Positions 2,609 to 46,803 of a stretch of DNA of 64,000 bases are shown here, piece by piece; the first letter of the stretch is position 1; every line of letters begins with the position of its first letter. The position numbers were made by a program, and so were the translations under genes. The DNA is from Selaginella moellendorffii (lineage: Eukaryota; Plantae; Lycopodiophyta): NCBI RefSeq assembly GCF_000143415.4, contig NW_003314285.1, forward strand, positions 833,370-897,369, written 5' to 3'. The notes under the pieces were generated by a model that ran no database searches, was not told the DNA's origin, and was given only the letters and a program-made list of their open reading frames with translations.

Positions 2609-8193
<5,585 letters not shown>

Positions 8194-8197
8194 CGCT

Positions 8198-8816: not shown

Positions 8817-10473
<1,657 letters not shown>

Positions 10474-11052: not shown

Positions 11053-11405
11053 CTAGAAAAGATTGTAAGGGAAGGCGTCGAGCGGATGAATCAGGTATGT
11101 GAGGACGAGCGCCGCGAACATGAGCACGTACGCGATTCCTTGATCGATCGAGACCCCTGGAGACAATAGCCCGTTAGATTCGATCTACATTGCCCAGAAC
11201 CGCAAAGATCTAGCAAGAAAGAGCGAGAAAGAGGGCCGGGGAGAGGAAATCTTGCAAAAACGCCTAGGTTTTCGCGATTTCGCGATTTCTTACCGTCGCT
11301 CTGTGGCGCTGGCGCCGGCGCTGGAGATTCTTGAGCTATGGCGACCGATCCGAGCAGTAGTACCATCGCCGTGGCCAAGGCGGCGAGAAACCTCGACGCC
11401 TCCAT
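11053..11405 (-). CDS. arabinogalactan peptide (AGP16/20/22/41 family), GPI-anchored, 2 exons
   Basis: Signal peptide, then QESPAPAPAPQSDG, spliced to VSIDQGIAYVLMFAALVLTYLIHPLDAFPYNLF*, matching the family motif SDGxxIDQGIAY..LTYLIH. Confidence 0.92.
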
Positions 11406-11573
11406 CGCTAGACCAAAAGAATGAACGTTCTCTAAATTATCCCTGGCCTTTAGTATGAATGACGGCTAAATGTACAAAGGTTAAAATTACCTCGCTGTTG
11501 TGGCCGTTGGATCCGGATCACACCCAAATGATTGCTGGCCGTTGGATGAAGAACAGTATTTTACAGGTTTTAT

Positions 11574-15636: not shown

Positions 15637-16258
15637 TTTTGCCCTGCCAGAGTATCTCTCAGCATCCGGCAAGCACCATAGGAGCTGCTCGTTAAAGAGC
15701 TCGAAACCTCGTTCTTCTCCATCACAAGGCCGGAAGATCGATGAAAAAAAAACTCCGGAAAACTCCCACTTGCCAATTATCAAAGTATTAGATTGAACTC
15801 TTCCCAGCTACATGCCGCTGCGAGCTCCACAGTTTGATAGCCGAGGAACTGTGCCACCGACAACGACACCCTCGTTAGTTTCTCGCTTAGACCATTCTTT
15901 TGGTGAGAACGAAAGGAAAAAAACGATTAAAATGATATTTCTTTAGCATAGCGTGCTCCAATTATTGGAACTATGAACTTACCCGGTAATAATCGATCGA
16001 TCAGAGTGTGATCGTCGCAAGACAGCTATAGCGAGAGTGTAACTTTTCACAAGATCAAAGAGATCAAAGAGCCCTAGAAAACAAATGTTAAACCAGGATG
16101 GGCTACCAGAGATGGGTGCTCTCTAGCTAGAACTGGAAACTAAAGCCCTAACCACGTGGCAAATTCTAATTTCGCGCCAAAAGTCAAAATTATCCTTGTC
16201 GCTGTCCAATGGGTGTTAGTCTAACACAGATTTTCTTAGGGGGTTTTTAGGGTTCTTG

Positions 16259-27177: not shown

Positions 27178-29877
27178 ATGCTTGCCAAGAGAGAAAGAAG
27201 GGAGGTCTACAACCAATGCATCCAGCGTCTCCAGGAATGCGCCAATGCGCGGGCGCTGGGCGATGGCAAGCGCGCTCACGAGCTCATCCAGCAATCGGGC
27301 TGGATCCACGACAGGCTGCTGGGAAATCTCCTCATCCGGATGTATGGCATCTGCGGCTGCCTGACGGACGCCATCGCCGCCTTCGATGCGATCCGGGAGC
27401 GCAACGTCTACTCCTGGAATCTCATCGTTGCGGCGAATGCCCAGAACGGGCAGCTCCATCACGCGGCGGCGCTCTTCGATCGCATGCCACAGCGGGATTT
27501 GTTCGCGTGGAACGCGATGATAGGGATTTTCTGCCAGGCCTCGCATCTGGAGGAGGCCAAGAGCGTCTTTGATCGGATGCCGGAGAGGGAGGCGCTGTCA
27601 TGGAACTCGATTCTTGCGGCCTTCTCTCAAAACAGCCATGCTCACCACGCTCTCGAAATATTTCGCAGGATGCCGGCTCGCGATCTCTCCTCCTGGAATT
27701 CGATGATACAGATCCACGCGCAGCTGGATCAGACCGACGCCCTGCCGGGATTGTTCGACGCAATGCCAGAACGAGACGTGATTTCCTGGACGACGATCGT
27801 CGCGGCATTCGCAAGAAAGGGGCAAATGGAGAGGGCGGGGGAGATCTTCCGCCTGATGCCACAGACCAACACTCGAGGCTGGAATGTGATCCTCGTCGGC
27901 TCCTCCCGCGGTGCCAGATCCATCTTCGACACCATGCCGGAGAGAGATCTCGTCTCGTGGAACGAATTCATTGCCGCCAGTGCCAAGATCGGCGATCTTG
28001 ACGCCGCCTCGACGATCTTCCAGCTGATGCCGCGACGCGACGTGATTTCCTGGACGACGATGCTCCACGGCGTGATGAGCTATGGGCGCCTGGAGCACGC
28101 CAAAAGACTCTTCGACGAGATTCCGGCGCGGAATGTGGTGACGTGGACGGTGGCGATTACATCCTACGGCGACGGTGGCGATGTGGATTCCGCGCGGGAA
28201 GCCTTCGCGCGAATGCCCCAGCACAATCTCTTCACCTGGAACGCGATGATGAGCGCTCTCTCCGATCAAGGTAACGCGATCCATCTCCAGGATGCCAGGG
28301 AGATCTTTGATGCTCTGCCTTACAGGGACGCGATCTCTTGGAACACTCTCATCTCCGGCTATGCCCAGCAGGGGCAAATCCGTGATGCGTTTGATCTCTT
28401 CGCCCATATGCCCGGCCGCGATAATGTCTCCTGGAACGCAATCCTCCTGGCCTACACCGAGGAATCGCTGCTCCAAAACGCGATCGCGCTCTTCGATCGA
28501 ATGCCCTGCCGGGATCTCATCGCGTGGAACACGATGATCCGGGCGTATGCCCTGGACGGGCATATCGACGAGGCACGGCAGGCGTTTGACGGCGCGGATG
28601 AGAAGGACGGGGTGGCGTGGACGGCCATGATCCGCGGGTACAACCACAATGGCTGCTCCGGCGAGGCCATTCGTCTCTTCATGGCGATGGATCTGGAAGG
28701 GATCAAGCCTTCCGGCGGGCTGTGCTTTGTGGCGGCGCTCAATTCGTGCTCGGCACCGCGGTTTCTCGAGCAGGGCAGGCGATTGTGTGAGAGGATCCTG
28801 GCGCTGGGGCTCGAGAGCGATCAGCTGGTAGCGGCGGGGCTGATCTCCATGCTGGGCAAATGCGGGGATCTCCAGAAGGCCGCGCGATTCTACCGCGAGG
28901 AGCTCTCGGAGGATCGGCGAATTGCCGTGGCGGGAGCGATGATCTCGGCCCTCGCAGCGAATTCCCAGGTGGGCGCTGCACGGGAGCTCTTCGATCGCCT
29001 CCCAGAGCCCACGAAGGACTGGAATGCGATGATCCAGGCTCACGTCGCGGCCGGGGAGATCGACAGAGCGGAGGAGCTCTTCCAGGAGATCCCAGCTCCA
29101 GACATCGTGGCCTGGTCGACGATGATCGCTGGCTACGCGCGATCCGGGCGAGGCGAGGAGGCGCTGCAGAGATTCCGGTCCATGGATCTGGAAGGCGTGC
29201 GCGCCGACGCCAGATCGTTCGTGGCGGCGGTGGAGGCGAGCGCGATCACTGCCGATTCATCGCGGCTGGAGACGATCCACGCGCTGGCGGTGGAATGCGG
29301 CCTGGATTCACACACGATCGTGGGTACCAGCATCGTGGACGCGCTGTGCAAGCGCGGCAGCCTCGCCCACGCCTGGATCGCCTTCGCCAAGATCTCCAGC
29401 CGGCCCAGGATCCCATGGAGCGCCATGGTCGGGGGTCTCGCACGGAACGGATATTCCCGCGAGTCTGTGGCGCTGTTCCGGGAGATGCTCGCGTACGGCG
29501 CCGCCCCCGACGCCGTCACCTTCGTGTCCGTGCTGGCGGCGTGCAGCCACGGTGGGATGCTGCGCGATGGCGTCGGCTACTTCGTGGCGATGCCGTTGGA
29601 TTTTGGAGTGTCGCCCACCGTGGATCACTACCGGTGTGTGGTTGATTTGCTTGGACGAGCCGGGCTGCTGGGAGAGGCCGAGGAGTTTTTGGAGGAGGCT
29701 ATGCCGGTCTTGGGGAGGGAGGATAGCGTGGCGTGGACGTCGCTGCTGGGATCGTGTTGGAGCCATGGAGAAGTGGAGCGTGGGAAGCGACTGGGAGAGT
29801 TGGCGGTGGGGTTTAATTGGGAGGAGCAATCCTCGTCCCCCTTTGTGCTGCTCTCCCACTTATCATGCTCGGACTAG
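27178..29877 (+). CDS. PLS-class PPR protein with E domain, no DYW (intronless, 899 aa)
   Basis: Many S/SS repeats (FDRMPERDVISW), then VLAACSHGG...HYRCVVDLLGRAG...AWTSLLGSC, ending at SSPFVLLSHLSCSD*. Confidence 0.93.
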   Translation: MLAKRERREVYNQCIQRLQECANARALGDGKRAHELIQQSGWIHDRLLGNLLIRMYGICGCLTDAIAAFDAIRERNVYSWNLIVAANAQNGQLHHAAALFDRMPQRDLFAWNAMIGIFCQASHLEEAKSVFDRMPEREALSWNSILAAFSQNSHAHHALEIFRRMPARDLSSWNSMIQIHAQLDQTDALPGLFDAMPERDVISWTTIVAAFARKGQMERAGEIFRLMPQTNTRGWNVILVGSSRGARSIFDTMPERDLVSWNEFIAASAKIGDLDAASTIFQLMPRRDVISWTTMLHGVMSYGRLEHAKRLFDEIPARNVVTWTVAITSYGDGGDVDSAREAFARMPQHNLFTWNAMMSALSDQGNAIHLQDAREIFDALPYRDAISWNTLISGYAQQGQIRDAFDLFAHMPGRDNVSWNAILLAYTEESLLQNAIALFDRMPCRDLIAWNTMIRAYALDGHIDEARQAFDGADEKDGVAWTAMIRGYNHNGCSGEAIRLFMAMDLEGIKPSGGLCFVAALNSCSAPRFLEQGRRLCERILALGLESDQLVAAGLISMLGKCGDLQKAARFYREELSEDRRIAVAGAMISALAANSQVGAARELFDRLPEPTKDWNAMIQAHVAAGEIDRAEELFQEIPAPDIVAWSTMIAGYARSGRGEEALQRFRSMDLEGVRADARSFVAAVEASAITADSSRLETIHALAVECGLDSHTIVGTSIVDALCKRGSLAHAWIAFAKISSRPRIPWSAMVGGLARNGYSRESVALFREMLAYGAAPDAVTFVSVLAACSHGGMLRDGVGYFVAMPLDFGVSPTVDHYRCVVDLLGRAGLLGEAEEFLEEAMPVLGREDSVAWTSLLGSCWSHGEVERGKRLGELAVGFNWEEQSSSPFVLLSHLSCSD

Positions 29878-30109: not shown

Positions 30110-30835
30110 TGAAAACTGATCACAGGAAAAGAATAAAATATGTCAACGATTAATCAGCCACCCTTACAAAAACGATGCCGCCAAAAAGAAACGCTTTCAC
30201 TACTTGGCGATCACATCCTCGATCAAATCGGCAGCGTCTTGCACGGTGACAATCTTCTCGGTTCCTTCCTCGCCCAGGCTGATCTTGAAGTTCTCCTCGA
30301 GTTGCATCATCACCTCAACCTTTGGAGACGAATCAAAGCATGAGTCGGCTCCAAGATCAGTTGGAGTGACGCTGGACTGATCGATCGAGAGCTGGGTGGC
30401 GATGATCTTCTGGACTGAAGCAAGAGTCTCTGGCTTTGCCTGTGGAAAAAGAAGATCAAAGACTCGCAATCCCCTAGAGAAAATCCGAGCACTAGAAGAA
30501 AGGTGTATAGAAGCATATCACGAGCAACCTCGCTTGCTAGTGCTGCTTGTCAAGACAATGGCGCTGGGCCTGAATCCGACCACCGGGGAAGCTCTCGCAA
30601 GGGATCCGACGCTTGCAGCAGGCACCATGGAGCACGATCCAGCGGGCCGTACCAAAAGCAGATCTTAGGGCTACCTCGCTCGATCGATCGGGGTCACAAT
30701 GCGAGACGAGATTACTCCGAAATGCTCGCAAATAGGAACTGGGGGAGAGAGCCTCAAAGACTGGCTAGGAGCTCAGATTATATGGAGGGACAAAGCCCTT
30801 GACGGAGCATCCAAAGAGGTTCGTTTATCCAACAT
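30110..30835 (-). pseudogene. decayed duplicate of the plastid acyl carrier protein gene at 41422-41948
   Basis: Same exon, intron and flank sequence as the intact copy. The start-codon region is deleted, there is an early TGA in the transit-peptide exon, and deletions remove about 4 codons of AAKFA plus LDT and the intron-2 donor (DLGADS-CFDSSPK). Confidence 0.88.
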
Positions 30836-31105
30836 GGAGTGCAAATCTTCGAAGACTGGAGAGCTAGACTTGGAGCTCTGCTGAGAATTACTCATGGACA
30901 AGTGAATGTTTAAGTAAAAACTGTATTTATTCCTTTTGAGGTGGACAAATTGATTTTTTCAACACAAAAAACAATAGCTTTATCAAGTTGGACTTATTTT
31001 TTCTCTTACTTGGTCAGAATGCATTCAATATAATGCAATGGTGAATTTTTAATTGATGAAATTCTAATTCTCCACTCTCTTGCATTACATAAATTTATTT
31101 CATGT

Positions 31106-31281
31106 TGTGAGTGTTTGGAATATGGAAAGGGAATACAGAAAATGTGCATATTAATTAGCCCAAAAACCCTAACTTATATACAGGAGCGAGTGGTCCAGAT
31201 TGAAACCAATCCGATGGCTACCAAAATCCCACTACGCTAATATTAATATACGGCATCGTAACCGTACACTTGGCCCTCACA
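31106..31281 (-). repeat. 3' LTR of the gypsy element
   Basis: Direct repeat of 39855-40030, with about 18 mismatches in 176 nt by hand count. Confidence 0.93.
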
Positions 31282-31299
31282 TCATCCCCGGAATAATGG

Positions 31300-34200
31300 C
31301 AAACCATCAAGGTTCTCTTGTAAACGGGTTGGGATTTAGAGGAACGTTAGGAGGAGGCATCGGCAGATCTATAGGTGGTATTAATTGCTCATGATCCCTT
31401 TGTATAAAGCGTTTCAACCGCTGCACATGCACAATCTCTGGAGGATCAGTCTGCTAGACGTCATGCCAAACCTCATAAACTTGTGGTCCAACTTGCCACA
31501 ACACCTGATATGGTCCTTTCCATTGTGCAAGGAGCCCCTTAGATAAACCACATACCGTAAGATGGGGAAAACAGACTAAGGCATCGGTGGATCTATAGGT
31601 GGTATTAACTGCTCCTGATCCTTTTGTATAAAGCATTTCAACTGCACATGCACAATCTTTGGAGGACCGGTCTGCTGGACGTCATGCCGAACCTCATAAA
31701 CTTGTGGTCCAACTTGCCGTAACACCTGATATGGTCTTTTCCATTGTGCAAGGAGCCCTTTAGATAAACCACGTACCGTAAGATGGGGAAAACGGACTAA
31801 CACCAAATCATCCACTTTATACTCCGCAGGTGGACGATGATGGGAGTTGTAGCGCCATTGTTGTCCCACTTGTACGCGGCCTAAGTGTTTGGCAGACTCC
31901 GCTCGGACAAGTGGAAGAATGCTTGTCAAATATTGATCCCATGACCTAGCATCCGCAACTTATGGCAATCGCGAGGGTAAACCCAACTCCATTGATAATA
32001 TTGGATCATGACCATATAGGAGTTTATATGGTGAAGCACCAATAGAACTCTACACCCCAGTGACATATGCATACTGAAGAGACGACAAATAACCATCCCA
32101 ATCCGAATGCTAAAAGTTCACATACTTCGCAATCATCCCCTTGAACGTCCGAATGAGCCGTTCCACCAAACCGTCTGATTGTGGATGATAAGCACTCGTG
32201 AAAGTGTGGCAAATCCCCAACTGAGACGTCAAAACATGAAATGCTTCAGCCATAAATGCGGGACCATTATCCGAAAGAATCCGCTCTGGACAAGAATGCT
32301 GGAACACCACTCGATTGAGGAGGAAGTATCCAACAGTAGTTGCAGAGGCGTTAGCAAGAACACCAACTTCCACCCAACGAGTCAAATAGTTAGAAGCAAT
32401 AATAACATACTCATTGCCAGCAGTCGACCGTGGAAAAAGTCCTATAAGATCAAACGCCACCAACTCAAATGGACGGGAAACTGCAATTGACTCCAACCGT
32501 CCTTCCGCAGCCCGAGGGGGAGTATTACGAGCTTGGCACCAAACGCAACTACGCACATACCGGATAATATCACGTCGCATCTTCGGCCAATAGAAAGACC
32601 TGCGTAGCTTCTCGATTACACAACGATGTCCCATATGCCCACCTAGAATAGAAGAATTATGGTAGGCATGGAAAAACTGCGGAATAAAGATAGAAGGTAC
32701 CACCAACCGTAAATGATCATTAGGATTTGTCCCCACAAAATAAAGAAGGCCACCTTCAAGATGATATTGAGAATGTAAATGCCGGAAAGGCAAGTCATCA
32801 GCAAGTGATGTAGGATTCTCAAACCCATTTTGAAGCCTTCGAATCCATGGCTCAATCTTTTGAGCCTCGCGAACCTTATCAACTGAAGGTAGATTTTGCT
32901 TTGCACCTTGTGGACACTAAACAAGTACAGCAATTGCCGACAGCACAGAATCCTCGTCAAGAAAATCCACAGATGCTAGAACAACAGGCTCATCAGAAAC
33001 ATGAGAAGAGAGTGAAGAAGGAAGAGGAGCTCGAGAAAGGACATCAGCATCAACCATAGAACTCCTTGGGCGATGAACAACATCAAAATCATATATCTGA
33101 AGCTTTAAGGCCCACCGAGCAATACGACCAACTAGGTTCTTCCCCTTTAATAACGAAGTAACAGCAGCATGGTCACCTTCAAGTAACGTCTGAGAACCAT
33201 GTAGATATGCATTAAGTTTCTCGAAATCCCAGACTGCTGCTAAACACTCCTTCTCTGTCGTGGAGTAGTTCATCTCCGCTGGTTGTAATGTACGGCTTAT
33301 ATATGCAATGGGATGGCACTAACCAGGCACACTCGAGCTCTCTTGCATCAACACACCTCCAAGACCAATGTCAGAAGCATCCACGCGCAAAATAAAAGGT
33401 CGAGTGTAGTCAGGATATGCCAAAACTGGAGGAGTCATTAACAGCTCTTTGAGATCCCCGAACGCCCGCTCACAATCCGGAGACCAGATGAAAGATGATA
33501 TTGATGACTTCAGCAACGCTCGCAATGGTGCAGTGTGATCAGAAAGATGATCCACAAAACGACCGAGATACTGCACCTTGCCCAAGAAGCGCTGCACATT
33601 ATTCACACACTTCGGAGTATGGAACTTTAGAACAGCCACAAGTTTGTTAGGATCAACTTGCAAACCCTTACGTGAAATAAGGTACCCAAGATAAGTTGTA
33701 TTCTTGGACCCAAATACGCACTTCGACCGCTTCAACTTTAAACCAACGTCGCGTAGCCGATCCAACACTTTACAAATATCACGAATGTGCTCCTCCCACA
33801 TCCCCTTCGAGTGGATCAAGACATCATTAATGAAGTCAGCAGTCACCTCTGGCATATCGCAAAGAACCTCGTCCATCATCCGCTGAAAAGTTGTTGGAGC
33901 ATTGTTCAAACTAAACGGCATCACCAAGGATTCGTACAAACCAAATGGTGTACAAAAAGCGGTCTTAGGAATATCTTCTTCGGCCATCAGTACTTGCTAG
34001 TACCCAGAAGCAAGATCTAGCTTGGTGAACCAACGACTTCACCCCAGACGATCCAAGAGATCAGCAGTGTGAAGAAGAGGGTTCACATCTAGGATCGTCA
34101 CTTTGTTTAACGGATGATAGTCAATGTAGAAACGAATACTCCCATCGGGCTTTGTCACAAGATGAGGTTCACATGCCCAAGGACTCCACGACTTCTGAAT

Positions 34201-34865
34201 AACACCTTTCTCCAACATCTCCTTGACATTTGCATGTAAAATCTAGATCTCCTTGGGTGACCGACGACGAATGGGAACCTTGATTGGACGAGCATCCCCA
34301 GTTGGAATGGGATGACGTGTGGCAATCTTAGCCCCAGATGATAGGTCAAATTCAAAGAGATCAGAATACTCCTTCATAAGCCGGTCCACCGCTACAACAC
34401 AAAGATCATCGGAGGGATTGGAAAAGGGAAGAGCAGAACAAGATGGAAATATAGGAGGAAATAGTGGGGGAACAAAAGTAATGGAAGCAGAGGTAAAAGT
34501 AGAGGGACGAAGAGGGACAGAAGTAAGAGGAATGGATGAAACGTAAGGAAGTATGAGACAAGGGGGAGAAGCCTCAAAGTCACACTTGGCATGATTGCGT
34601 TGCAACCAATCCATACCAAGAATGAGGTCAAAAGCTTGACTCGGCACCACCCGCAAGGACTGCAACTCAAGCATCTAGATCGCCCATACGCACAACCAGG
34701 TCCACCTCATCCCATGCATATGCATGTGTATGGCCGTTGCCATAAAGAATGAAAACGGGTTCCGTCGCACGATGCAAGATGGCAACGTGTGGCAATAGGT
34801 CGAGCAATAGAAGATAAACTCAAACCTGTATCAACCAACACAGAGAGAAGAAGAGGAGACCTCTT
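31300..34865 (-). pseudogene. gypsy pol (protease C-terminal part, RT, RNase H, integrase), disrupted
   Basis: ORF-track fragments 34243-34674, 33319-33987, 32917-33273, 32110-32793 and 31576-31929. Confidence 0.92.
31355..31800. repeat. about 224-bp tandem duplication of the integrase C-terminal (GPY/F) region
   Basis: aggcatcgg..gatctataggtggtattaa...gatggggaaaac.gactaa occurs twice, and both copies encode FPHLTV.GLSKGLLAQWK.PYQVL.QVGPQVYEV. Confidence 0.9.
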
Positions 34866-35406
34866 TGTAATCGACTAAATTTTCCATTCTGCTTTAGTCA
34901 CTTAACCACACCTCTGACCACTTGGAGGAGTCTCATTCACAACCTCCATAAGTCCAATCCAGGACTTGGGACTTGCTAGCCCCGAGAATGGCATCCATGC
35001 CACTCAACATTTGCACTTGGTCCAAGTGCTCCACATGTCCGATCCCATGACCGACACTCAAAGGTACCACCGACATAGCAGCCCGTTACGCTAAGGCCAT
35101 GCCCAATCACCTTTGCCACACTGGTAGTCCAATACCACTTGCATCACAGTCTTGGCTCTCCAAGACTAGGCAAACCATCCGTGAGTGGTCATCTCAGATC
35201 CACTCCTTAGCATCCTTAGGATGTCCACCGACAAGGGGATAGCCTTCCCCACTATCCCTCTGTCAGTCCCCACTAAGTCCCTTTCTGCCCCTGGTCGTGT
35301 TTGCCAACACTGCCACTAGATCGAGACCCACAGGCCCGACCACTAAGTCCCACAGTCCTCTGGGACTTCCTCACCACACGACTGTGTCCTTGGTCACTAC
35401 CCCAGA
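34866..35406 (+). repeat. left terminal inverted repeat (541 bp)
   Basis: tgtaatcgactaaattttcc...ggtcactaccccaga. Confidence 0.95.
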
Positions 35407-35861
35407 GGACTGCTCCTCTTCCTTTCCACAGTTTGGGCCTTTGGGACAACATTTCGGAACACCGTGGCCTTACGCGAGCCACCTGGGTACTCTCCTCGCC
35501 TTCTGCCCTTGGGTGCTCTAGCCATGGGCTTAGAGCGGGTTCCATTGAGCCACACTAGGTATCCAAGTAGGTAGTGCCACCCACACTTGGACTGGGAGCA
35601 TCGGCCAGTCGATCTCCCGGGGGAACTAGAGCCGGCTCTTGAACACTTCACCAAGCTACCCCGCTTGTCGGTCCGTGTTCACTCTAGTCTTGGACTTCCC
35701 AGTGGGCAGCTCATCACCCAACACTGGGTCCGGCCTTCCTGGGCCAAACTGGCCTTTCCTAGCCAAACTGGCTCCACTGCAGTCCTCCCCCTTACTATAC
35801 TTTTGGAGCTCACCAAACCCCCCAGGGTCTAGGAGACGAACGCTTTGGGCTTTCACCCTCT

Positions 35862-36387
35862 CAGACTCGAGCTCGGACTCGGACTCAGACTCGGACTCGG
35901 ACTCAGACTCGGGCTCGGCCTCGGTCTCGGCCTCGGCCTCGGTCTCGTTCTCGGTCCCGATCTCGGTCTCGGTCTTGGTCCCGGTCTCGGTCTCGACTTC
36001 GGACTCCATCTCGGACTCCATCTCGGACTCCATCTCGGACTCCATCTCGGGTCCATCTCGGACTCCATCTCAGGTCCATCTCGGACTCCATTTCGGGTCC
36101 ATCTCGGACTCCATCTCGGACTCCATTTCGGGTCCATCTCGGACTCCATCTCGGGTCCATCTCGGACTCCATCTCGGACTCCATTTCGGGTCCATCTCGG
36201 GTCCACCTCGGACTCCATCTCGGACTCCATTTCGGGTCCATCTCGGGTCCACCTCGGACTCCATCTCGGGTCCATCTCGGACTCCACTTTGGACTCCAAC
36301 TCGGGTCCATCTCGGACTCCACTTTGGACTCCAACTCGAGTCCATCTCGGACTCCACTTCGGACTCCAACTCGAGTCCATCTCGGAC
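35862..36387. repeat. compound minisatellite (CTCGGA and CTCGGT hexamers grading into CTCGGACTCCAT, CTCGGGTCCAT and CACTTTGGACTCCAA units)
   Basis: Directly visible tandem array. It produces the spurious SDSD, ESEM and PRW ORFs in the ORF track. Confidence 0.95.
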
Positions 36388-38023
36388 ACTTCCACGTGTC
36401 ATGTGTTGGCTTTTGGGTCCCTTTTTGGAGCCTCGCTTTTTGCTCGCTTCGTGCTCGTTCCTCGAGCACTTCTTTGGGAGTTCCACTCCCGCTCTTGACT
36501 TTTCAAGTCGGAGCTTTTGGTCCAAACGTGTTACGCTCGTTTGGCTCTCGCTTCAGCCACTACCATGTGGCACCCTTCCCGGCTCCACTTTGGGGCCTAG
36601 GGATTTTGTGTCTCACAACTCCACCACCCATAGACGAAGTTCGATGTCCTCATCGAACGGTAAACCATTTTATAAAGTAACACCCAGATGTGTTACCATT
36701 TCCATCCTTGGCCCCTAGCCAATATTTGTCAATGGTTTGACATTGAAGGCTCACCATGCCTTCTCCATATTCATCAATGGTTCGACACCAAAGGCTCACC
36801 ATGCCTTGCCCATCCTCTAAGGAGGATAGTCTCTCCAACTTAGAGATTCACTTGACCACCTGGGGTGGTTTGCTCCTTTTTATTGGTTCAGTTCTCGCTA
36901 AACCTATTAGAGACACACTCTCTAACTCAATTCCACTACTCATTCTTGAGTAGTCACAGATTCCATTGATCTACCTTTGCACTTTGGAACGTTTACTCTC
37001 GACTTTTTGGAGTCAATTTCCTAGGTGTCTCTAACACCTTGCCTTGCACATTTTGTGCAACTCCACTTCCCCTTCTAGGAAGCTCTCTACTCGAGGGCAC
37101 CATCATCCTCTTTCCTATTTTGTGCCACCTTGGGCACTAAATTCCAGTTATTATACTTTGTGCTAGGGCTGTCCATAGCTCTATCATTTGGCTATCTTAC
37201 CGCTCCCTCCCTTGGAGCTTCCACTTTTGCTAAATCGGAGCAATTCGGAATCCATCTTTGGAGACACACTTCCTTTCCCACAATTTGTTAGCGTCCAACA
37301 CATTAGTGTTCCTCGCCTAACTTTGTCACTTGGATTCCTTCCCAGGGATTCCACGGCCCTATCTTGGCCACTCATCTTTTGCTCCTATTCGTTGATTGTT
37401 GCACCAAGCAACATCGAATCTCTACCTCCCTCCTTGAGGTATTCTTTTGATTCCATAGCAAAGGCTCTGCTTTGCCAAGACTAGGGTGTTCACCCCTAGT
37501 AAGTCTCTTTTAGCATCTTCTGCTGTGGGCTCTATCCTCGGCCCAACTTTGTGACCCTCTCATGGGTCTCTTTAGAGACTACTTTCCTTGGACACACTAT
37601 GCAATCGCAATGACATAGCTCATTTCCCTAAGGTGCTTTTCCCACTTGGTCACCTTGACCAAGCCACACCATCATCAATAGTTCAAATTAACACTTTGAA
37701 CTAGGAACCTTATTCCTTAACCCAAACAAGGACCTTGTCCTTATTTAGCCACAAGATCACCTAGTGATCTCACCTCGGCACCTTAACAGGTTTGCCAATA
37801 GGTACTAGGTCTTCCAGACCTTTAACTTGTTAACTATGACCCCGGGGGCATCCCCCACACTTGGCGGTGCGCCCAAGCCAGCCCTTCCGGCCAAGGGTCT
37901 ATAGCAACTGAGATTAGGTGTCCCCATCTCACTCACCACGTCCTTTGTGCCACTTGCACCAAAGCGTTCAAGTTAGATATGCCGAGCTTTCACACTAAGC
38001 AATCTAACCGTGCATCAAGGTGA

Positions 38024-38564
38024 TCTGGGGTAGTGACCAAGGACACAGTCGTGTGGTGAGGAAGTCCCAGAGGACTGTGGGACTTAGTGGTCGGGCCTGT
38101 GGGTCTCGATCCAATGGCAGTGTTGGCAAACACGACCAGGGGCAGAAAGGGACTTAGTGGGGACTGACAGAGGGATAGTGGGGAAGGCTATCCCCTTGTC
38201 GGTGGGCATCCTAAGGATGCTAAGGAGTGGATCTGATATGACCACTCACGGATGGTTTGCCTAGTCTTGGAGAGCCAAGACTGTGATGCAAGTGGTATTG
38301 GACTACCAGTGTGGCAAAGGTGATTGGGCATGGCCTTAGCGTAACGGGCTGCTATGTCGGTGGTACCTTTGAGTGTCGGTCATGGGATCGGACACGTGGA
38401 GCACTTGGACCAAGTGCAAATGTTGAGTGGCATGGATGCCATTCTCGGGGCTAGCAAGTCCCAAGTCCTGGATTGGACTTATGGAGGTTGTGAATGAGAC
38501 TCCTCCAAGTGGTCAGAGGTGTGGTTAAGTGACTAAAGCAGAATGGAAAATTTAGTCGATTACA
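38024..38564 (-). repeat. right terminal inverted repeat (541 bp)
   Basis: tctggggtagtgacc...ggaaaatttagtcgattaca. Confidence 0.95.
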
Positions 38565-38688
38565 CTCTTGTTATAAAAACGAGCTTGTAAAGTAAACACT
38601 GGATGAACTGGTGTTGAGTGAACCCCTTGATGATACTCCCGAAAGAAAGATGGAGGGGTCACTGACTTATTCATGCAAGGTCCCTCCG

Positions 38689-39621
38689 TTACTCGCGCGA
38701 CTCCTTGTTTCCTGGATGCATCTTAGTGTCCAAACCTTCCACTACAGCAGCACCAACGGGACGTTGCTGACGCCAAGGTCTCCACCCAGGAAATGGAGGT
38801 CGCCAATCCGGAAAACGCCAACAACGCTGATAAGTATGACCAACTTCGTCACATGCCCAGCAGCGAATATCACGGCCACGACCACGTCCTCGCCCTTGTC
38901 CTTGGACTCGAGTAGCAGCAGCATCAACCTCCATTGGAACAGGACCATCACCTATAGGAAGAGGAGCTGAAGGACGTGTAGCAAGAAGTGGGAGAGGCGA
39001 TGTCTCATAACGTTGTGCCAAGTGAAGAGCATCGTCAAGGGTGGCGGGAGCAAGTGCATGCACAAGTTCGACAAGATCTTGACGAAGTGCTGGCCACAAC
39101 ATTCCTCGCTTGATCCGCTCCGACATATTTGGCTCTGCACGAAGCAAAAGACTTCGGAAACGAACGCCAAATTGCATCACCGACTCAGATGGCCCTTGGC
39201 GAAGACGATGCAATTGTTAGAAAGCATCATCACAGTCATCAGCATGTCCGAAGGCACGTTTGAAGACATCTGGAAGAACACTCCAATCCCCGCGAGTGGC
39301 TGCTCCCAAACTGTTGTACCACTGCAATGCCATCCCTTGGAGACACGTGGGAAACTCACGCAAACGTTGAGCATCATCCCAAGAATGATATGTGGCAATC
39401 ACCGTGAAGTGATCGAACCAATGGTACACATCATCCCCAGGATTCCCGCGAAAGAACTCCGGCCGAACGCGAGGATTGGCACCAAGAGCAGGAGGAGTTG
39501 TACCATGTGCCGTGAACAGCGCTATCAACTAAGTTTTGTTGTTCAATTGCAAACGCATAGCATCAAACAATTGGACCAACTATTGCTCCAGAGTCAAAGG
39601 AGGAGATTGCTGATTTGCCAT
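38689..39621 (-). pseudogene. gypsy gag with premature stops
   Basis: MANQQSPP...RPEFFRGNPGDDVYHWFDHF...LQGMALQWY...LRQGPSESV...PVPMEVD...CWACDEVGHTYQRC. Three in-frame TAG/TAA stops are consistent with CAG/CAA deamination. Confidence 0.9.
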
Positions 39622-39834
39622 GGAGACAAATGAAAAAGAAAGAGCAAAAGAAGAGAAATGACAAAAAGCTAGAAGGAAATGGTAGATCTAGACAATGCAA
39701 AAAGCTAGATCTAAACCAAAATCCTGAAAAGAAAGAACAAAAGAAAGGAAATGGAAAAAGCTAGATCTAAACAATGCAAAAGTTAAATCTAAACCAAAAT
39801 CCCAAATTTAAGCACTCCTTAGAGATAATCAAAG

Positions 39835-39853
39835 GTGCCCCTCACCTCCACCA
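39835..39853 (-). other. primer binding site of the gypsy element (tRNA-Ala-like)
   Basis: The minus strand reads TGGTGGAGGTGAGGGGCAC one base after the 5' LTR. It resembles the complement of a plant tRNA-Ala 3' end (from memory, about 2 mismatches). Confidence 0.6.
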
Positions 39854-39854
39854 A

Positions 39855-40030
39855 TGTGAATGCTTGGAATTTAGAAAGGGAATACAGAAAGTATGCATCT
39901 CAATTAGCCCAAAAACCCTAGTTTATATACAGGAGCAAGTGGTTTAGATTGAAACCAATCCGACGGCTACCAAAATCCCACTACGCTAATATTAATATAC
40001 AGCATCGCAGCCATACACTTGGCCCTCACA
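39855..40030 (-). repeat. 5' LTR of the gypsy element
   Basis: Direct repeat of 31106-31281, followed on the minus strand by the PBS. Confidence 0.93.
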
Positions 40031-41421
40031 AATTCAAAAATTAATAAAAAATAGTCAATTAAAAATTATTTTTTAATAAGTCTCAAAAACATAAACTGTT
40101 TATAAATACAGTTGATATGTATAAATGAACGATGCAAATGAAGGACATCGGTATTTTTTTGTACAAGCATGCATTTGAGAACAATGTTAGAGGGATGAGT
40201 TTAATTAGAATATGAAAAAATTAAAGGAGCTATAAACACCAAAATGAAAATGGAGTTATAAAACTGAGAATGGTGTATTACAATAAATCAACCATGTTTA
40301 CATATGCATAGACAAAATATAAATTTAATATATGTGAACCAAAAATATGAAATTTTCCACAACCAATAGCTCTTAGGTCATTGATGAGATATATCATAAC
40401 AAAAAGTCAATGTCAAGATTGTAAAACAATACAAACTTTTAAGAAAGATACTCAAGCTCTCTCGTAACCCTTTGTGCTGGGAATTAGATTGGACACGGAC
40501 TCCAACTTCAACCAATGGCCACACCATAGTCAATAAAAGAAAAAAAAACAAGTAGATAATAGTCACGTATATAATTCAATAGTCAATCGTGAATATAGAA
40601 TTAAATACTCATGAGTGCCCTTTCCACTTTTTCCTTGATATTCAGCCCGAAAATCCTAATCTCCTTCATAGACTGATTGCCAGTCAGGTGAATGTGGACT
40701 GTAAACAATGTTATTGCTATTAGCCTTCTCCATTCTGTCTATGCTGCTGCCACCAAACTTCCCTCCTACTGCTGCTCTAGACGTGGCAGCAAAGTAATGT
40801 GCCACCCAAAGTTGGGAAACAACAAAACAAGTAATTTGGAGATGAAAGGGCAACTAAGTTAGATGGCAGTAGCATAAAAAGGTGAGATGCTTGGAGGACG
40901 GGCATTCGCAATTGGGGATTAGAAGAATGGCAGATAATTTAAATGAACTCTTGAAAGTGGTGCTTAATGCACAAACGCCTTCAGAGACATGGCATCTGGG
41001 CTATTAAGACTTGTCGTGCGCCTCTTTGCTGTGAGGATTCTTAGTGTTCTTGTGGCTGGCTGAGGAAACTAAGTGAACCCATGCTCAACCGAGCTGGATT
41101 GGCATTGTTAGTATCCTGTACTCCCGGATCTCTAGGCAGAGATTCTGCAGGTCCTGCCTATGCCTTGGTGGCTCTGGGCAAGATTAATAGGCAGAGCCCT
41201 CCTGATGACACTTCCACAATTCTGGGGTGAGCCAGTCCCTAGGTGGCACATGTCCATCTCTAATTGAAAAATGGTTTCCTGTGATCACTGAGAAAGAAAG
41301 GAAAGAATAAAAATGCAGTCAACGGATCTGTAAGAACAGGGGACAAAACGAATTATTAAACTACAAAAACGATGCCATTTTGGTTGGTTGATCCGCCGCA
41401 AGAACGCGTTGCTTGCTTTCT

Positions 41422-41948
41422 TCACTGCTTGGCGATCACATCCTCGATCAAATCGGCAGCGTCTTGCACGGTGACAATCTTCTCGGCTCCCTCCTCGCCC
41501 AGGCTGATCTTGAAGTTCTCCTCGAGTTGCATCATCACCTCAACCTTTGGAGACGATTCAAAGCATCCAGTCAGAAAACAAAAAGAAGGAGCGAAATATC
41601 CATTACCGTGTCGAGCGAGTCGGCTCCAAGATCGGCGAACTTGGCAGCCGGAGTGACGCTGGACTGATCGATCGAGAGTTGGGTGGCGATGATCTTCTGG
41701 ACTGAAGCAAGAGTCTCTGGCTTTGCCTGTGAAAACAGAAGATCACATTCCCCCGGAGAAAAATCGGAGCACTAGAAGAAAGGCATATAGAAGCATACTG
41801 CGCATGAAATGAGGGAGCGACCACGCTTGCTTGTCAAGACAATGGCGCTGGGCCTGAATCCGACCACGGGGGAAGCTCTCGCAAGGGATCCGACGCTAGC
41901 AAAGGACACGGCGGGCACCATGGAGCACGATCCAGCGGCAGCGGCCAT
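41422..41948 (-). CDS. ACP: plastid acyl carrier protein, 3 exons
   Basis: Transit peptide, then AKPETLASVQKII...KFADLGADSLDT/VEVMMQLEENF, containing the phosphopantetheine site DSL. Confidence 0.93.
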
Positions 41949-42314
41949 TGCTAAAGCACCAAAAGCAGATCTTAGAGCGATCGATTGGAGTGACAATCTT
42001 ACCAGAGCGAGACGAGGTTACTCCGAAATGAGGAAAGAAATGCTCGCGAATGCCGCCTGGATCACGAGGAACTGAGAGAGAGAGCGCCTAAAACCCTGGC
42101 TGAAAGCCCGGGTTATATGGAGGGACAAAGCTCTTGACGGACCATCCAATCCAAAGAGCATGCAAAAAACAAATCATGAAAAAGGTTTTACCACAAAATT
42201 ATTTGCTTTTATCCAACTTGCTCTAATTGCAAAATGCCCCTCGAATTTGGCTACATTATCGTGAGGGTGACGGACATCTTTCTCAAGAACCCTAGAAAAA
42301 ATTTGGAAGTTATG

Positions 42315-43088
42315 TTATTGCTCTACCTCGGGGTTGGGCACACCCAGGTTAGTGGCGTCGTAGTTCGTGAAGAACACGTACTGGTAGACAAGGTGTGGAA
42401 TGCACGGCTGGAACACCTGCGGTTTCACGTCCAGCATTCGTTCCAGGAGCTGCGAGTTCTCCATGATCGTGCTCAGCAGAATTTTTCCTGTGACAATGTC
42501 GGAGCTTAGCTGCCGCGAGTAGAGATTATTTCTTTTTTCTCACCGTTTTCTGCTAGGAGCAATCGAGCAGCCTCTGCGTACTTGGTCCACACCTCCGACG
42601 TGATGAAGGGAGGATCAATCACCACGAAATCGAAGCTATGGTGGAAAGCCTCTGGGATTTCCTTGGGCTTGTTGAAATCCCATTTCACGTAGTTTGGCGA
42701 TCGAGACCACTGCGCGTCCACCTATGGAAGGGAAGATTTGCAATGCAACCAAGGGAAAAGAGACGATCCTTACATCGAAAACGAAGCTACATTTCCTGAG
42801 CTGCAAATCCTTGAGCGAGAAGTAGACGCTGGGAGTGGAGAGAAACGCGGCCTTGGTAGCGCGCTCTTCGACTTCCTGGGAGACACCAATATTTCATGAA
42901 GAAACTGTGCTGTGCGCGAGGGAGATCTGATCGAGATCCGGATCAAACACACCCTAGAAATCCATGACGATCTAGATCACCTTGACAATGGCGGCGATGG
43001 TGGCGGCCGAGTACCAGTACTGATTGAGCTCCCACTTCTCGGGCGTCCTCTGGACGAATGCGCGCCCTAGCGCCTCGCCGTCCACCAT
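42315..43088 (-). CDS. EEF1A lysine methyltransferase 1-like (N6AMT2/Efm5 family), multi-exon
   Basis: EKWELNQYWYS, AFLSTPSVY, WDFNKP, FVVIDPPFI, and HLVYQYVFFTNY. Confidence 0.82.
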
Positions 43089-43218: not shown

Positions 43219-45183
43219 TTAGAATGCGTTGGAGATCAAGATGTACGGTGCCGATGCCTCGGGCTCGACCTCCAGGAGCTCTCCGTACGCCCTAGCCCCG
43301 TGCTCTTGGTTCTTGTGGAGGCGGCACGCGCTCAAGAACGTCGTCCACGCCACTGGATCCGGCAGATAGGGCATGCTGTGGATCAGCTCCTCCGCGTCGC
43401 GCAGCCGCTTGGATCGCCCCAGTAGATCGATCATGCAGGTGAAGTGCTCCAGCTTGGGATCCATCGCGTAGAGCTCCTGGATCGCCAGGAATTGGGCGCG
43501 CGCGCCCTCGAGCATCCCGCAGTGGCTGCATCCCGTGAGGATCATCGAGAATGTGGTGTCGTTTGGCCGGATTCCATCGAGATCCAAGCAGCGAGCCAGC
43601 CACAAGCCGTCGCTCCAGGGACCGTGCTCCGCGTAAGCCCCGATCATACAGTTCCACACCACCAAGTTCTTGTCCTCCATTCCATCGAATATTCTTCGCG
43701 CCTTGAGCATATGCCCGCAGTGGGCATATGCCGCCACCATTGTGTTCCTGGCGATCATGTCTTGGAACGGCATAGTTTGGAAGATTTGCTCGGCCTCGAG
43801 AATATGCCGCTTCTGGGCATGTGCCTGGACCATGACACTGTACGTGACAATGTCCCAGCAGGGCATCTTCGTAAACACCGATTTAGATTCCTCGACGCGA
43901 CCGTTTGTGGAGTACGCTGAAATCATAGCCGTCCATGAAATGAGATCTTTGAATATCAACCCAGCAAAGAGTTTCTCCGATTCTAGAATATGCCCACACT
44001 GGGCATATGCCGTGAGCATCGAAACAGAAGAGACAATGTCATAGAACGGCATCTTAGCAAATATCTTATTTGCAGAGTCAAACTCCTCGTTTTCTATGTA
44101 GGCCATGAGTATCCCATTCCAAGATACCGAGCCGCGAACAGGCATATTCTCAAACATGGCGCTGGCCTCACGCAGATACCCTTGCTGGGCATATGCTTGC
44201 ATTACAGCCGTCCAGCACACGGTATCCCTCAAGGGCATCCGCTGGAACGCGTCCAACGCCTTCGAAAGATTCCTGTTCTGGGTATATGCCACTATGAGAC
44301 ACGTCCATGTCACGACGTCCCAAGCTGGCATCGAGTAAAACAAGGTCTCGGCCTCACAAAGATGCCCCGTGTTGGTATATGCCTGGAGCATGCAATTCCA
44401 TGAGATAATATTCCTTTTTGGCATGGAATCAAAAGCCTCCCTAGCTCTAGACAAACTCCCAGCCTCGGCATAAGTCTTTAACAGTGCTGTCCAAGATACC
44501 ACATCTTTCTCTGGCATCTCACCAAACAGCTTAGATGCTTTTCGAATATGCCCAGACAGGGCATATGCTTGCATCAGGCAGCTTTGGGCCACTTCATTAT
44601 GCTGGGGCATACGTCCGTACACATACTCCACATCTTCTGCTAGGCCACACTCCACAGTTACCTGGAGGACCGTACACCATGACACAATATTTCTAGTGGC
44701 CATGTCGTTGTGCATTTGCTTGGCATCGTCAAAATGCCGGTTTTTGGCAAGTGCTTGGAGCATGATATTCTGGCTCATCACGTCAGGTGAATCCATGGTC
44801 TCGTACAAATTACATGCGTGCTGGATAAAACCATGGTCTCCCAGTGCCATGACCATGGTTGTGATGCTCACGTTGTTTGGATGGGGAATCCGCTGGAAGA
44901 AAAGCTCCGTCTTGCAGATATTCCCGGACCGGGCATATGCCGAGAGCATAATGTTCCACGAATATTCGTTCTTGTGGGAGATGCTGTGGAACGCAGCCTC
45001 GGCATCCTCGAGGCTGCCACACTTGTTGTACATGTCGACGACGAGATTCGCAAGGAAGGTGTTTGATCTACAGTCGCTAGTGCCAAGAATTTCACGGTGG
45101 ATTTTTTTTGCCACAGGTAGATCCCTGGCGGCTATGCACGATTTGATGGCATTGACGAAGAAATCCTTGTCATTCCATCTCAT
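43219..45183 (-). CDS. PLS-class PPR protein with E domain, no DYW (intronless)
   Basis: LVVDMYNKCGSLEDA, repeated MP..DVVSW, GCSHCG...HFTCMIDLLGRS...AWTTFLSAC, ending at SAPYILISNAF*. The likely ATG is 45183, because the longer ORF to 45447 overlaps the CRCK gene. Confidence 0.9.
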   Translation of the reverse strand: MRWNDKDFFVNAIKSCIAARDLPVAKKIHREILGTSDCRSNTFLANLVVDMYNKCGSLEDAEAAFHSISHKNEYSWNIMLSAYARSGNICKTELFFQRIPHPNNVSITTMVMALGDHGFIQHACNLYETMDSPDVMSQNIMLQALAKNRHFDDAKQMHNDMATRNIVSWCTVLQVTVECGLAEDVEYVYGRMPQHNEVAQSCLMQAYALSGHIRKASKLFGEMPEKDVVSWTALLKTYAEAGSLSRAREAFDSMPKRNIISWNCMLQAYTNTGHLCEAETLFYSMPAWDVVTWTCLIVAYTQNRNLSKALDAFQRMPLRDTVCWTAVMQAYAQQGYLREASAMFENMPVRGSVSWNGILMAYIENEEFDSANKIFAKMPFYDIVSSVSMLTAYAQCGHILESEKLFAGLIFKDLISWTAMISAYSTNGRVEESKSVFTKMPCWDIVTYSVMVQAHAQKRHILEAEQIFQTMPFQDMIARNTMVAAYAHCGHMLKARRIFDGMEDKNLVVWNCMIGAYAEHGPWSDGLWLARCLDLDGIRPNDTTFSMILTGCSHCGMLEGARAQFLAIQELYAMDPKLEHFTCMIDLLGRSKRLRDAEELIHSMPYLPDPVAWTTFLSACRLHKNQEHGARAYGELLEVEPEASAPYILISNAF

Positions 45184-45271
45184 TTGCCCTTGCCCACGAA
45201 TATTTACCCCTCGTTGACTTTTGAACTTGGCGCGTGGAATATTTAGCCGTTGACGCGGGTATATTCGATGT

Positions 45272-46803
45272 ATGAGTGGAATATCGTTCGTAGCTAGGTT
45301 TTCGCGATTTTGGGATGGTGTCATGACAATGATCTTGAGGAAGCTGTCGCGATCCGTGACTTGCCTCAAGCCCGCCGTGCTGGAGGATGGAGCACCGATC
45401 AAGGCGCAGCGCCACTCGGATAATCGCGGTTTCAGCGACAGCTCCAATTCTTTCTCCCACGGCGGCTTCTCGCGCCAGGCGCCGGATCAGAGCATTGCCT
45501 ATCGATTCGACATGGCGGAGCTGCTGAGAATTACGGGAAATTTCTCGGCCGATCGGCTCGTCGGGCAGGGAGGGTTTGGGACGGTCTACAAGGGCCGCCT
45601 GCGCGACGGCACAGTCGTGGCAGTCAAGCGCGCAAAAAAGGTAAGAGGAGAAATTTTCTTTGTTTTTTTGCGCGATTCCTCTCGCGGCTTGTAACCAAGA
45701 TTGGCGATTTCACAGAACAATCTCGAGTCGAGAATCACGCAGGAGTTTAGGAGCGAGATCCAAATGCTGGGCAATGTGGAGCATTTGAATCTCGTGAAGC
45801 TCCTGGGGTACTTGGAGCAGGATCGCGAGAGGATCATCGTCGCGGAGTTCGTTCCAAATGGAAATCTTCGCCAGCACCTAGATGGTATGTAAGAACTTTT
45901 CTTCTCTAGCTCAATCCTCTAAAGACCTTGGCTAAACCAGGACAAAATGGAAGTGTGCTCCACTTGGCCACCAGACTGGACATCGCGATCGATGTAGCGC
46001 ACGCATTGACTTATCTCCACCTCTACGCTGGTAAGCACGATTTTTTTTAAAGATTTCTCCACCAGACCGCTACAACGCTGCCGCCGCCCAGACTTATTCT
46101 CGCGAGACCACTGTTGTTCTTGGCAGATCGTCCCATCATCCACCGCGATATCAAGTCCACCAACATCCTTCTCACGGACACCTTCCGCGCCAAGGTCAGC
46201 GACTTTGGGTTCTCGCGAACCGGTCCTGCGGACCTAGAGTCCACTCACGTCTCCACTCAAGTGAAAGGCACCGCCGGGTATGTCGACCCCGAGTATCTCC
46301 ACACTTACCAGCTCACGGACAAGAGCGATGTCTACTCGTTCGGTATTCTCGTGTGCGAGATCATCACCGGACGAAGGCCCATCGAGCTCATGCGGCATGG
46401 CGACGAGCGAGTGACCATACGATGGGTATGTTCTCCTCTCCTCACTCAAAACGTGATTTTGTTCTTCGGGTTTTACTGTTTTCGTTGATCTCTTCAGACG
46501 TATAAGAAGTTCCGGGAAGGCAGGCTTCACGAGGCTCTGGATCCGCGGATGGAGATCACGCCGGACACTTACGTGATCATCGAGCAGATGATGGAACTGG
46601 CGCTGCACTGTGTGGCACCCAAGCGAACGGACAGGCCCTCGATGAAACGCGTTGCCGAGGCGCTGTGGAACATTAGAAGAGATCACAGGCCGGAGTTGCA
46701 GCGGCTAGCCGAGAGGGAGATTTCGTCGAGCAGGGCTGTGAGCAGAAGTAACTCGAAACAAAGCGATAGTCGTGCTTCCGCTGCTGCTCATCCCTGGCTG
46801 TAA
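45272..46803 (+). CDS. receptor-like cytoplasmic kinase, CRCK/RLCK-IV-like, multi-exon
   Basis: [47 protein letters not shown], and [18 protein letters not shown]. Confidence 0.88.

What the first reader, a model, noticed from the sequence alone, without database searches (positions are those of the whole stretch)
34861..38569. Foldback element with retroviral-integrase signatures: 541-bp TIRs, TG...CA ends, 5-bp TSD, no coding capacity
Seen: a 3,699-bp insert whose ends are 541-bp inverted repeats (about 5 mismatches, so it is young or homogenised), starting TGTAATCG and ending CGATTACA, flanked by a perfect CTCTT duplication. Removing it restores the host protease frame through LVDTG. I found no transposase, integrase or RT motif inside. 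Knowledge: TG...CA with a 5-bp TSD is the footprint of LTR-retroelement integrases, but those have direct repeats. The long-TIR DNA transposons I know differ: MULE 9-11-bp TSD, CACTA 3 bp, hAT 8 bp, Polinton 6 bp; as I recall, Ginger has 4-5 bp and GingerRoot 6 bp, with shorter TIRs. Inference: three options. It may be a non-autonomous member of an undescribed integrase-type (Ginger-like) DNA transposon family, an inverted-LTR derivative mobilised in trans by a gypsy integrase, or a giant solo LTR with unusually long inverted ends.
Basis: partly seen in the sequence, partly recalled or inferred. Interest (0 to 1): 0.85.

Follow-up and report, generated by a model that had tools for sequence, protein, structure and literature searches.

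The report
Retrotransposon inserted with two identical ends
The 3.7-kb 'foldback element' is a broken copy of a highly repeated LTR retrotransposon that carries a flipped copy of its own tail end where its front end should be, likely a one-off copying accident that integrase still inserted cleanly and probably not a new transposon family.

Summary
In detail: 34866-38564, 541-bp inverted arms with 5 mismatches, TG...CA ends and a CTCTT duplication inside a gypsy protease region. The reading as a new TIR transposon is not supported. Public contigs of related genomes show that the arm is the 3' (U5) end of the LTR of a highly repeated LTR retrotransposon: other copies run on from it into a tRNA-Met-type primer-binding site. 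At the inner junction (38017/38024) other copies continue into more internal sequence on one side and into the LTR body on the other. The insert reads, on the minus strand: inverted U5 piece, 6-nt filler, 1.4 kb non-coding internal DNA, purine tract, full 1,752-bp LTR. It is a 5'-truncated retrotransposon integrated by two U5 ends. Most likely reverse transcriptase doubled back on its own cDNA; joining of two cDNAs at one target is the main rival. No genome or long reads were available, so the junction has no independent support and the family is unnamed. This scan noted four similar insertions before in other genomes (unchecked notes). Interest 0.3.

The parts
34861..34865 (+). Left copy of the 5-bp target-site duplication CTCTT
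   Evidence: Sequence; host-family contigs without the insert
34866..36617 (-). Complete 3' LTR, 1,752 bp, TGTGAGAC...CGATTACA. The U5 end at 34866 is shown; the U3 start at 36617 is inferred.
   Evidence: PBS-type loose ends beyond the U5 end in other copies; TG directly after a purine tract; higher summed depth than the internal part (weak hint only)
34866..35406 (-). Left arm = last 541 bp (U5 side) of the 3' LTR
   Evidence: arm begins at LTR position 1212
35872..36387 (.). Tandem arrays (6-bp and 11/12-bp units) at LTR positions 231-746, on the U3 side
36618..36629 (-). Polypurine-tract-like stretch GGGTGGTGGAGT directly before the LTR's TG (inferred PPT)
   Evidence: Sequence. The likeness of the upstream GAGGACA motif to chromovirus 3' ends is recalled and comes from no call.
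36618..38017 (-). 1.4-kb 3' part of the element's internal region, non-coding, cut off at 38017
   Evidence: No Pfam family at cut-off; other copies continue past 38017 into a stretch like 37838-37870
38018..38023 (+). 6-nt filler AGGTGA at the junction, in neither continuation seen in other copies
38024..38564 (+). Right arm = inverted copy of the last 541 bp of the LTR, giving a second U5 end
   Evidence: In other copies the letters before 38024 equal the reverse complement of 35407-35431, i.e. the LTR body
38565..38569 (+). Right copy of the target-site duplication CTCTT
31106..40030 (-). Host: older, broken Ty3/gypsy element with 176-bp LTRs (31106-31281, 39855-40030; 18 differences) and gag-PR-RT-RH-INT order; the insert lies in its protease region
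   Evidence: Pfam hits in 6 of 7 host ORFs: Retrotrans_gag, RVP_2, RVT_1, RT_RNaseH, Integrase_H2C2, rve, SH3_Tf2-1

Best explanation
The insert is a 5'-truncated copy of a highly repeated LTR retrotransposon with the LTR's U5 end on both sides, likely made when reverse transcriptase doubled back onto its own new minus strand and likely inserted by the family's integrase in one concerted step. Shown: the anatomy, that both ends are U5 ends, the 5-bp duplication, and that other copies do not continue through the junction. Inferred steps: (1) minus-strand synthesis ran normally through U5, R, U3, the purine tract and 1.4 kb of internal sequence; (2) at 38017 the 3' end left the RNA and, through 3-nt microhomologies and a 6-nt filler, primed on its own single-stranded U5 region 541 nt from the end and copied it out; (3) plus-strand synthesis from the purine tract opened the stem, and a second tRNA primer or a second strong-stop DNA filled in the other strand; (4) the linear DNA now had two U5 attachment sites ending in CA, which integrase supplied in the particle joined to target DNA with the usual 5-bp stagger. 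The copy has no 5' LTR, PBS or genes, so it would be unable to retrotranspose again. The 5 arm differences would have arisen after insertion.
For: U5 identity: letters beyond the arm's outer end in other copies read, in element sense, CGATTACA-ATT-TGGTATCGGAGC (table 7: 50 contigs in X1, 37 in X2 [same sample], 2 in X4; agreement 0.6, 0.6 and 1.0; no X5 row among the 24 of 4,936 rows shown). That this is a tRNA-Met PBS rests on recall of the motif; PMC6317226 gives tRNA-Met as the commonest plant PBS (39%) and 5 bp as the TSD of 93.4% of elements (passages). Junction: loose ends behind 38017 (44 contigs in X1, 2 in X5) go on into internal sequence; loose ends before 38024 (31 in X1, 1 in X5, 2 in X4) go on into the LTR body (14 of 38 rows shown). 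Same template for both arms: 99.1% identity, whereas only 41,399 of 201,905 X1 pieces on the stretch are 99% alike or better; both arms share alleles that are the minority in most runs at 34915/38515 and 35326/38104. Four of 5 arm differences are transitions, three at CG or CHG sites, as expected of decay after insertion. The filler and its flanks match two 9-nt stretches on the strand a copy-back would use, 37650-37658 and 37754-37762 (0 of 4,000 Markov sequences held both; 0.06-0.15% of 200,000 fake junctions). HIV-1 integrase with LEDGF binds two U5 duplexes (PMC3623958, passages).
Against: The filler test is post hoc. A single 12-nt reverse-complement match to the whole junction also lies in the chromosomal flank at 42974-42985 (0.2% of insert 12-mers have such a match within 5 kb, 1% within the window). 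It points to repair on the chromosome, so at least one of the two template paths is chance. At 35326/38104 the shared allele is the majority in X2, and only two such sites could be read. Near-identical arms also follow if two cDNAs came from one source element. The U3 start at 36617 is inferred; no loose-end row for it was among those shown. No full-length member of the family was obtained.
Confidence: 0.55

Rival explanations
1. Two-donor integration: one integrase complex joined the U5 ends of two separate cDNAs (or of a cDNA and a second strong-stop-derived piece) to one target site, giving the 5-bp duplication. Host end-joining then fused the two free inner ends with a 6-nt templated filler.
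For: Gives the same anatomy and TSD. The whole 12-nt junction has a reverse-complement match 4.4 kb away on the chromosome, as templated-insertion repair could leave (knowledge of polymerase-theta repair, recalled). [quoted passage not shown]
Against: Needs two long deletions and survival of a chromosome break. The flank match is expected for 0.2-1% of random 12-mers, up to 3.5% by Markov models. The arms share minority alleles, which one template explains most simply.
Confidence: 0.25
2. Rearrangement after a normal insertion: a full element inserted with CTCTT on both sides, and its 5' part was later replaced by an inverted copy of U5 through repair or template switching.
For: A filler-bearing junction is typical of repair (recalled). 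The filler's possible template in the flank.
Against: The new U5 end abuts the TSD to the base, CA included, with nothing lost or added. Repair has no reason to stop exactly there; integrase does.
Confidence: 0.08
3. A non-autonomous member of an integrase-type (Ginger or GingerRoot-like) DNA transposon family, or a unit that has spread with these inverted ends.
For: TGTNR termini as in Ginger (PMC2836005), long inverted ends, 5-bp TSD as in TDD-4 and TDD-5.
Against: The arm is followed by a PBS-type motif in other copies and continues into a direct-repeat LTR body. TIR and TSD lengths do not match Ginger1, most Ginger2 or GingerRoot. No DDE protein inside.
Confidence: 0.05
4. Giant 3.7-kb solo LTR whose own ends are 541-bp inverted repeats.
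For: TG...CA and 5-bp TSD fit a solo LTR; a PBS next to the arm in other copies is also compatible.
Against: Every LTR copy should then carry the 38017/38024 junction, but other copies leave the sequence at both sides of it. A purine tract plus TG lies inside.
Confidence: 0.02
5. Assembly artefact (a fold-back chimera or a mis-join between repeat copies).
For: A high-copy repeat nested in another repeat; no long reads were available for this locus.
Against: Exact TSD; host flanks colinear across the site; arms differ at 5 sites with a methylation-type spectrum.
Confidence: 0.05

Closest known systems
tRNA-Met-primed plant LTR retrotransposons (Ty3/gypsy chromovirus type suspected, not shown; classification of PMC6317226)
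   Same: TG...CA LTR, purine tract before the 3' LTR, tRNA-Met-type PBS after the 5' LTR in other copies, 5-bp TSD, high copy number, nesting in another LTR element.
   Different: This copy has one LTR plus an inverted U5 piece in place of two direct LTRs, and no PBS or genes. The superfamily could not be tested because no RT or integrase of the family was recovered.
Ginger1 and Ginger2/Tdd DNA transposons (PMC2836005)
   Same: [quoted passage not shown]
   Different: Ginger1 has 40-270-bp TIRs and 4-bp CCGG/CCGT TSDs; Ginger2 has 50-180-bp TIRs and mostly 4-bp TSDs; both encode a transposase. Here the 'TIR' is an LTR U5 end.
GingerRoot (PMC6839031)
   Same: Plant element with inverted ends that co-localises with gypsy elements; 5 of 77 have TG...CA ends.
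   Different: 6-bp TSD (6-8), 100-150-bp TIRs, 72 of 77 with TA...TA ends, DDE motif in 54 of 77.
DIRS-1 retrotransposons (search listing only)
   Same: Retroelement with inverted terminal repeats.
   Different: Uses a tyrosine recombinase, not a DDE integrase (listing). That it makes no TSD is recalled. Here there is a clean 5-bp TSD and the family has ordinary LTR features.
Retroviral concerted integration with U5 substrates in vitro (PMC3623958, PMC11054761, PMC2857682; passages)
   Same: Integrase can hold two U5 ends; two donor molecules can be integrated into one target.
   Different: Those are test-tube reactions; PMC11054761 describes integration in infection as using one U3 and one U5 end. 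This is a genomic fossil in a plant.

Membership tests
LTR retrotransposon (as source family) | LTR with TG...CA termini | tested here: met
   36617-34866 on the minus strand reads TGTGAGAC...CGATTACA, 1,752 bp; U3 start inferred
LTR retrotransposon (as source family) | PBS just after the LTR's 3' end | tested here: met
   In other copies, not in this one: loose ends at 34865 in X1, X2 and X4; tRNA-Met assignment recalled
LTR retrotransposon (as source family) | Polypurine tract before the 3' LTR | tested here: met
   GGGTGGTGGAGT directly before TG at 36617; function not shown
LTR retrotransposon (as source family) | 5-bp TSD | tested here: met
   CTCTT; 93.4% of plant elements per PMC6317226
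Intact LTR retrotransposon (this copy) | Two direct LTRs flanking the internal region | tested here: not met
   The 5' side is an inverted 541-bp U5 piece
Intact LTR retrotransposon (this copy) | gag-pol coding region | tested here: not met
   0 of 41 stretches at Pfam cut-off
Ty3/gypsy versus Ty1/copia (source family) | RT, RH and INT order and phylogeny | not testable with these tools
   No genome held; pattern scans brought no member
Ginger1 | 4-bp CCGG/CCGT TSD and 40-270-bp TIRs | tested here: not met
   5-bp CTCTT and 541 bp
Ginger2/Tdd | 50-180-bp TIRs, 4-bp TSD (5 bp in TDD-4 and TDD-5) | tested here: not met
   TSD length fits TDD only; arm length and LTR origin do not
GingerRoot | 6-bp TSD and 100-150-bp TIRs | tested here: not met
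Any TIR DNA transposon family | Several copies with the same inverted-end structure and different TSDs | tested here: inconclusive
   Other copies of the sequence diverge at the junction, but short contigs of other samples cannot exclude a few copies
DIRS order | Tyrosine recombinase, no TSD | tested here: not met
   No recombinase hit; TSD present; the no-TSD rule is recalled

The most novel reading that the evidence does not exclude
Two-U5 insertion is a recurring by-product of LTR reverse transcription across fungi and plants, and it creates TIR-bounded units in one step. That would be a direct route for the LTR-to-TIR conversion that Bao et al. (PMC2836005, Discussion) called unclear and explained by two separate LTRs. 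Read-through from the host's 5' LTR across both arms would also give a 541-bp hairpin RNA able to silence the whole parent family.
Probability: 0.2. Interest if true: 0.6.

Novelty: new variant of a known kind. Interest (0 to 1): 0.3.

Why it matters
As one dead copy it matters little: it adds no new transposon superfamily. It is a clean natural record that a plant LTR integrase can likely use two U5 ends with a normal 5-bp stagger. It also warns that TIR-based annotation can file such copies as DNA transposons. If a survey shows such insertions to be regular, they give a measurable rate for a reverse-transcription error, a candidate origin for Ginger-type TIRs, and a source of inverted repeats that could trigger silencing.

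Tried and rejected
No whole genome is held for this window, so copy number and TSDs per copy could not be tabulated. In the focused lay, none of the 24 listed pieces (of 1,808) from three DNA runs bridged 38017/38024. These runs hold at most 65% of the stretch's words and a filter drops records, so this neither proves the junction unique nor confirms it. No RNA holder was listed with more than a small share, and RNA run X22 laid 0 reads on the 120-bp junction stretch: no test of expression. Summed contig depth is higher over 35427-36714 than over 36715-38002 (X5 2,880-16,989 against 231-1,479), but the tool says this is no copy number, so it is a hint only. Pattern scans for a full-length member failed: one search used a motif one base off and is void; (viral contigs) gave 0; (metagenome contigs) gave one hit, L001, a bacterial contig with a chance 20-mer and no BLAST similarity. 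A protease-like look of the arm's translation was considered and dropped (no Pfam or tblastn support). The small hairpin before the purine tract is not unusual in energy (z -0.61). No TATA-like motif near the arm's inner end was found among the 8 motifs tried, so whether the arm equals the strong-stop DNA is open. No other piece of the insert lies in the window. ARAGORN and Rfam were blank. The Atlas placed the host integrase only among generic eukaryotic integrases. Literature: 10 searches listed no paper that describes a genomic two-U5 LTR insertion with a TSD. The library lacks most subscription papers, and I read no supplements; the Additional files of PMC6317226 may list the source family. 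PMC12789967 and PMC11226609 passages were off topic. SM-Tcn1 (440-bp LTRs, no PBS; PMC2864245 passages) does not fit the source family.
Full report
Observation. The insert spans 34866-38564 (3,699 bp). It starts TGTAATCG, ends CGATTACA and is flanked by CTCTT on both sides. Its arms are 541 bp with 5 mismatches. It lies in the protease region of an older gypsy element on the minus strand: 176-bp LTRs at 31106-31281 and 39855-40030 with 18 differences, and Pfam hits for gag, protease, RT, RNase H and integrase in gypsy order in 6 of 7 ORFs sent. The flanks are colinear, and contigs of other host copies run across the site without the insert. The host is broken at further places. The insert has no detectable coding capacity: 0 of 41 stop-free stretches reached a Pfam cut-off.

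What the arm is. No genome is held, so I laid contigs of public runs on the locus. The sequence is highly repeated: 201,905 pieces from run X1 and 3,873 from X5, a run of another organism. Beyond the arm's outer end, 50 contigs in X1, 37 in X2 (same sample as X1) and 2 in X4 continue with the same letters. In the element's sense these read CGATTACA, a 3-nt spacer, then TGGTATCGGAGC. I recognise this from memory as a tRNA-Met primer-binding site; PMC6317226 (passages and section 9 read) gives tRNA-Met as the commonest plant PBS and 5 bp as the TSD of 93.4% of elements. The moderate agreement of 0.6 is expected, because the same end meets varied chromosomal flanks at 3' LTRs and solo LTRs. So the arm is the U5 end of an LTR. 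Inside the insert, a purine tract GGGTGGTGGAGT followed by TGTGAGAC at 36617 marks the likely U3 start and gives a 1,752-bp LTR with tandem arrays in its U3 half. That boundary is inferred.

The junction. A second lay on 37961-38080 shows what other copies do. Behind 38017, 44 contigs in X1 and 2 in X5 continue into more internal sequence resembling 37838-37870. Before 38024, 31 contigs in X1, 1 in X5 and 2 in X4 carry exactly the reverse complement of 35407-35431, the LTR body. The six bases between, AGGTGA, belong to neither continuation. A family of foldback elements, or a giant LTR with inverted ends, would carry this junction in most copies; the family does not. Short contigs from other samples cannot exclude a few more copies, nor confirm this one.

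Anatomy. On the minus strand: TSD, inverted last 541 bp of the LTR, filler, 1.4 kb of non-coding 3' internal sequence, purine tract, full LTR, TSD. This is a 5'-truncated LTR retrotransposon whose two chromosome junctions are both U5 ends, each ending in CA at the TSD with nothing lost. That precision points to integrase acting on two U5 ends (about 0.8 for this much, the two leading mechanisms together). [quoted passage not shown] PMC11054761 (passages) describes normal infection as using one U3 and one U5 end.

Mechanism. I favour a copy-back during reverse transcription (0.55). The arms are 99.1% alike in a family where 85,995 of 201,905 X1 pieces are under 95% alike to this stretch (host flanks included). 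They share alleles at 34915/38515 (the other allele holds 61-100% of summed depth in all four runs) and 35326/38104 (60-100% in X1, X4 and X5, but 23-31% in X2). The filler with three bases on either side matches two 9-nt stretches on the new minus strand itself, at 37650-37658 and 37754-37762, which gives a path with 3-, 6- and 3-nt homologies (0.06-0.15% of fake junctions). Against this, the whole 12-nt junction also has a reverse-complement match in the flank at 42974-42985 (0.2-1% by an empirical control), which would suit repair on the chromosome after two cDNAs were integrated at one site (0.25). Both tests are post hoc and at least one match is chance, so the filler does not decide. Rearrangement after a normal insertion (0.08) does not explain the exact end at the TSD. 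An artefact (0.05) does not explain the TSD or the mismatch spectrum: 4 of 5 transitions, 3 at CG or CHG sites. With a recalled grass LTR rate of 1.3e-8, which may not apply, the arms date to about 0.36 million years and the host LTRs to about 4.2, the right order for nesting.

Comparison. GingerRoot has a 6-bp TSD, 100-150-bp TIRs and mostly TA ends (PMC6839031, parts 1-3 of 7 read). Ginger1 and Ginger2 have 40-270-bp TIRs and mostly 4-bp TSDs (PMC2836005, passages and Discussion). Neither fits. DIRS-1 has inverted repeats but a tyrosine recombinase (listing only). The source family's superfamily is untested; a chromovirus type is a guess from a recalled motif. No call determined the organism; the PPR-rich, gene-dense window looks to me like a non-seed plant, from recall.

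Novelty. Ten searches of the open library found no paper on a genomic two-U5 LTR insertion, which is weak evidence given its gaps. This scan has noted four such insertions in other genomes (unchecked notes, not support). My note reached the two-U5 reading before I saw them; the term copy-back is taken from one of them. Bao et al. call the path from LTR element to TIR element unclear and suggest two separate LTRs in opposite orientation. A two-U5 insertion would make such ends in one step, but this copy carries no integrase and shows no sign of having moved again. Verdict: real, explained in outline, a structural variant of an ordinary element; interest 0.3.

Noticed in passing
window 30196-30814 and 41421-42149: Two diverged copies of an acyl-carrier-protein-like gene (label recalled from the translation, not searched) flank the host gypsy element on the minus strand; the left copy lacks a stretch at an intron boundary and looks broken.
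   Followed up: partly
window 31100-31105 and 40031-40036: The host element's flanks (TCATGT and AATTCA) show no matching TSD, and its LTRs differ at 18 of 176 sites, so it may be a recombinant of two copies or have lost its TSD.
   Followed up: no
window 39831-39854 (minus strand): The host's PBS reads TGGTGGAGGTGAGGGG, which I recall as a tRNA-Ala type, not among the common plant PBS types listed in PMC6317226.
   Followed up: no
window 31355-31800: 221-bp tandem duplication (91% alike) at the 3' end of the host's pol region.
   Followed up: no
window 37838-38017: In other family copies the sequence past 38017 resembles 37838 onward, which suggests a roughly 180-bp tandem repeat in the family's 3' non-coding region; the break fell at a unit boundary.
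   Followed up: partly
window 27474-28538 and 43219-45486: Long runs of 93-bp-period repeats in ORFs that look like pentatricopeptide-repeat genes (label recalled).
   Followed up: no
window 42974-42985: Exact 12-nt reverse-complement match to the insert's inner junction, 4.4 kb from the insert; chance or a repair template.
   Followed up: yes
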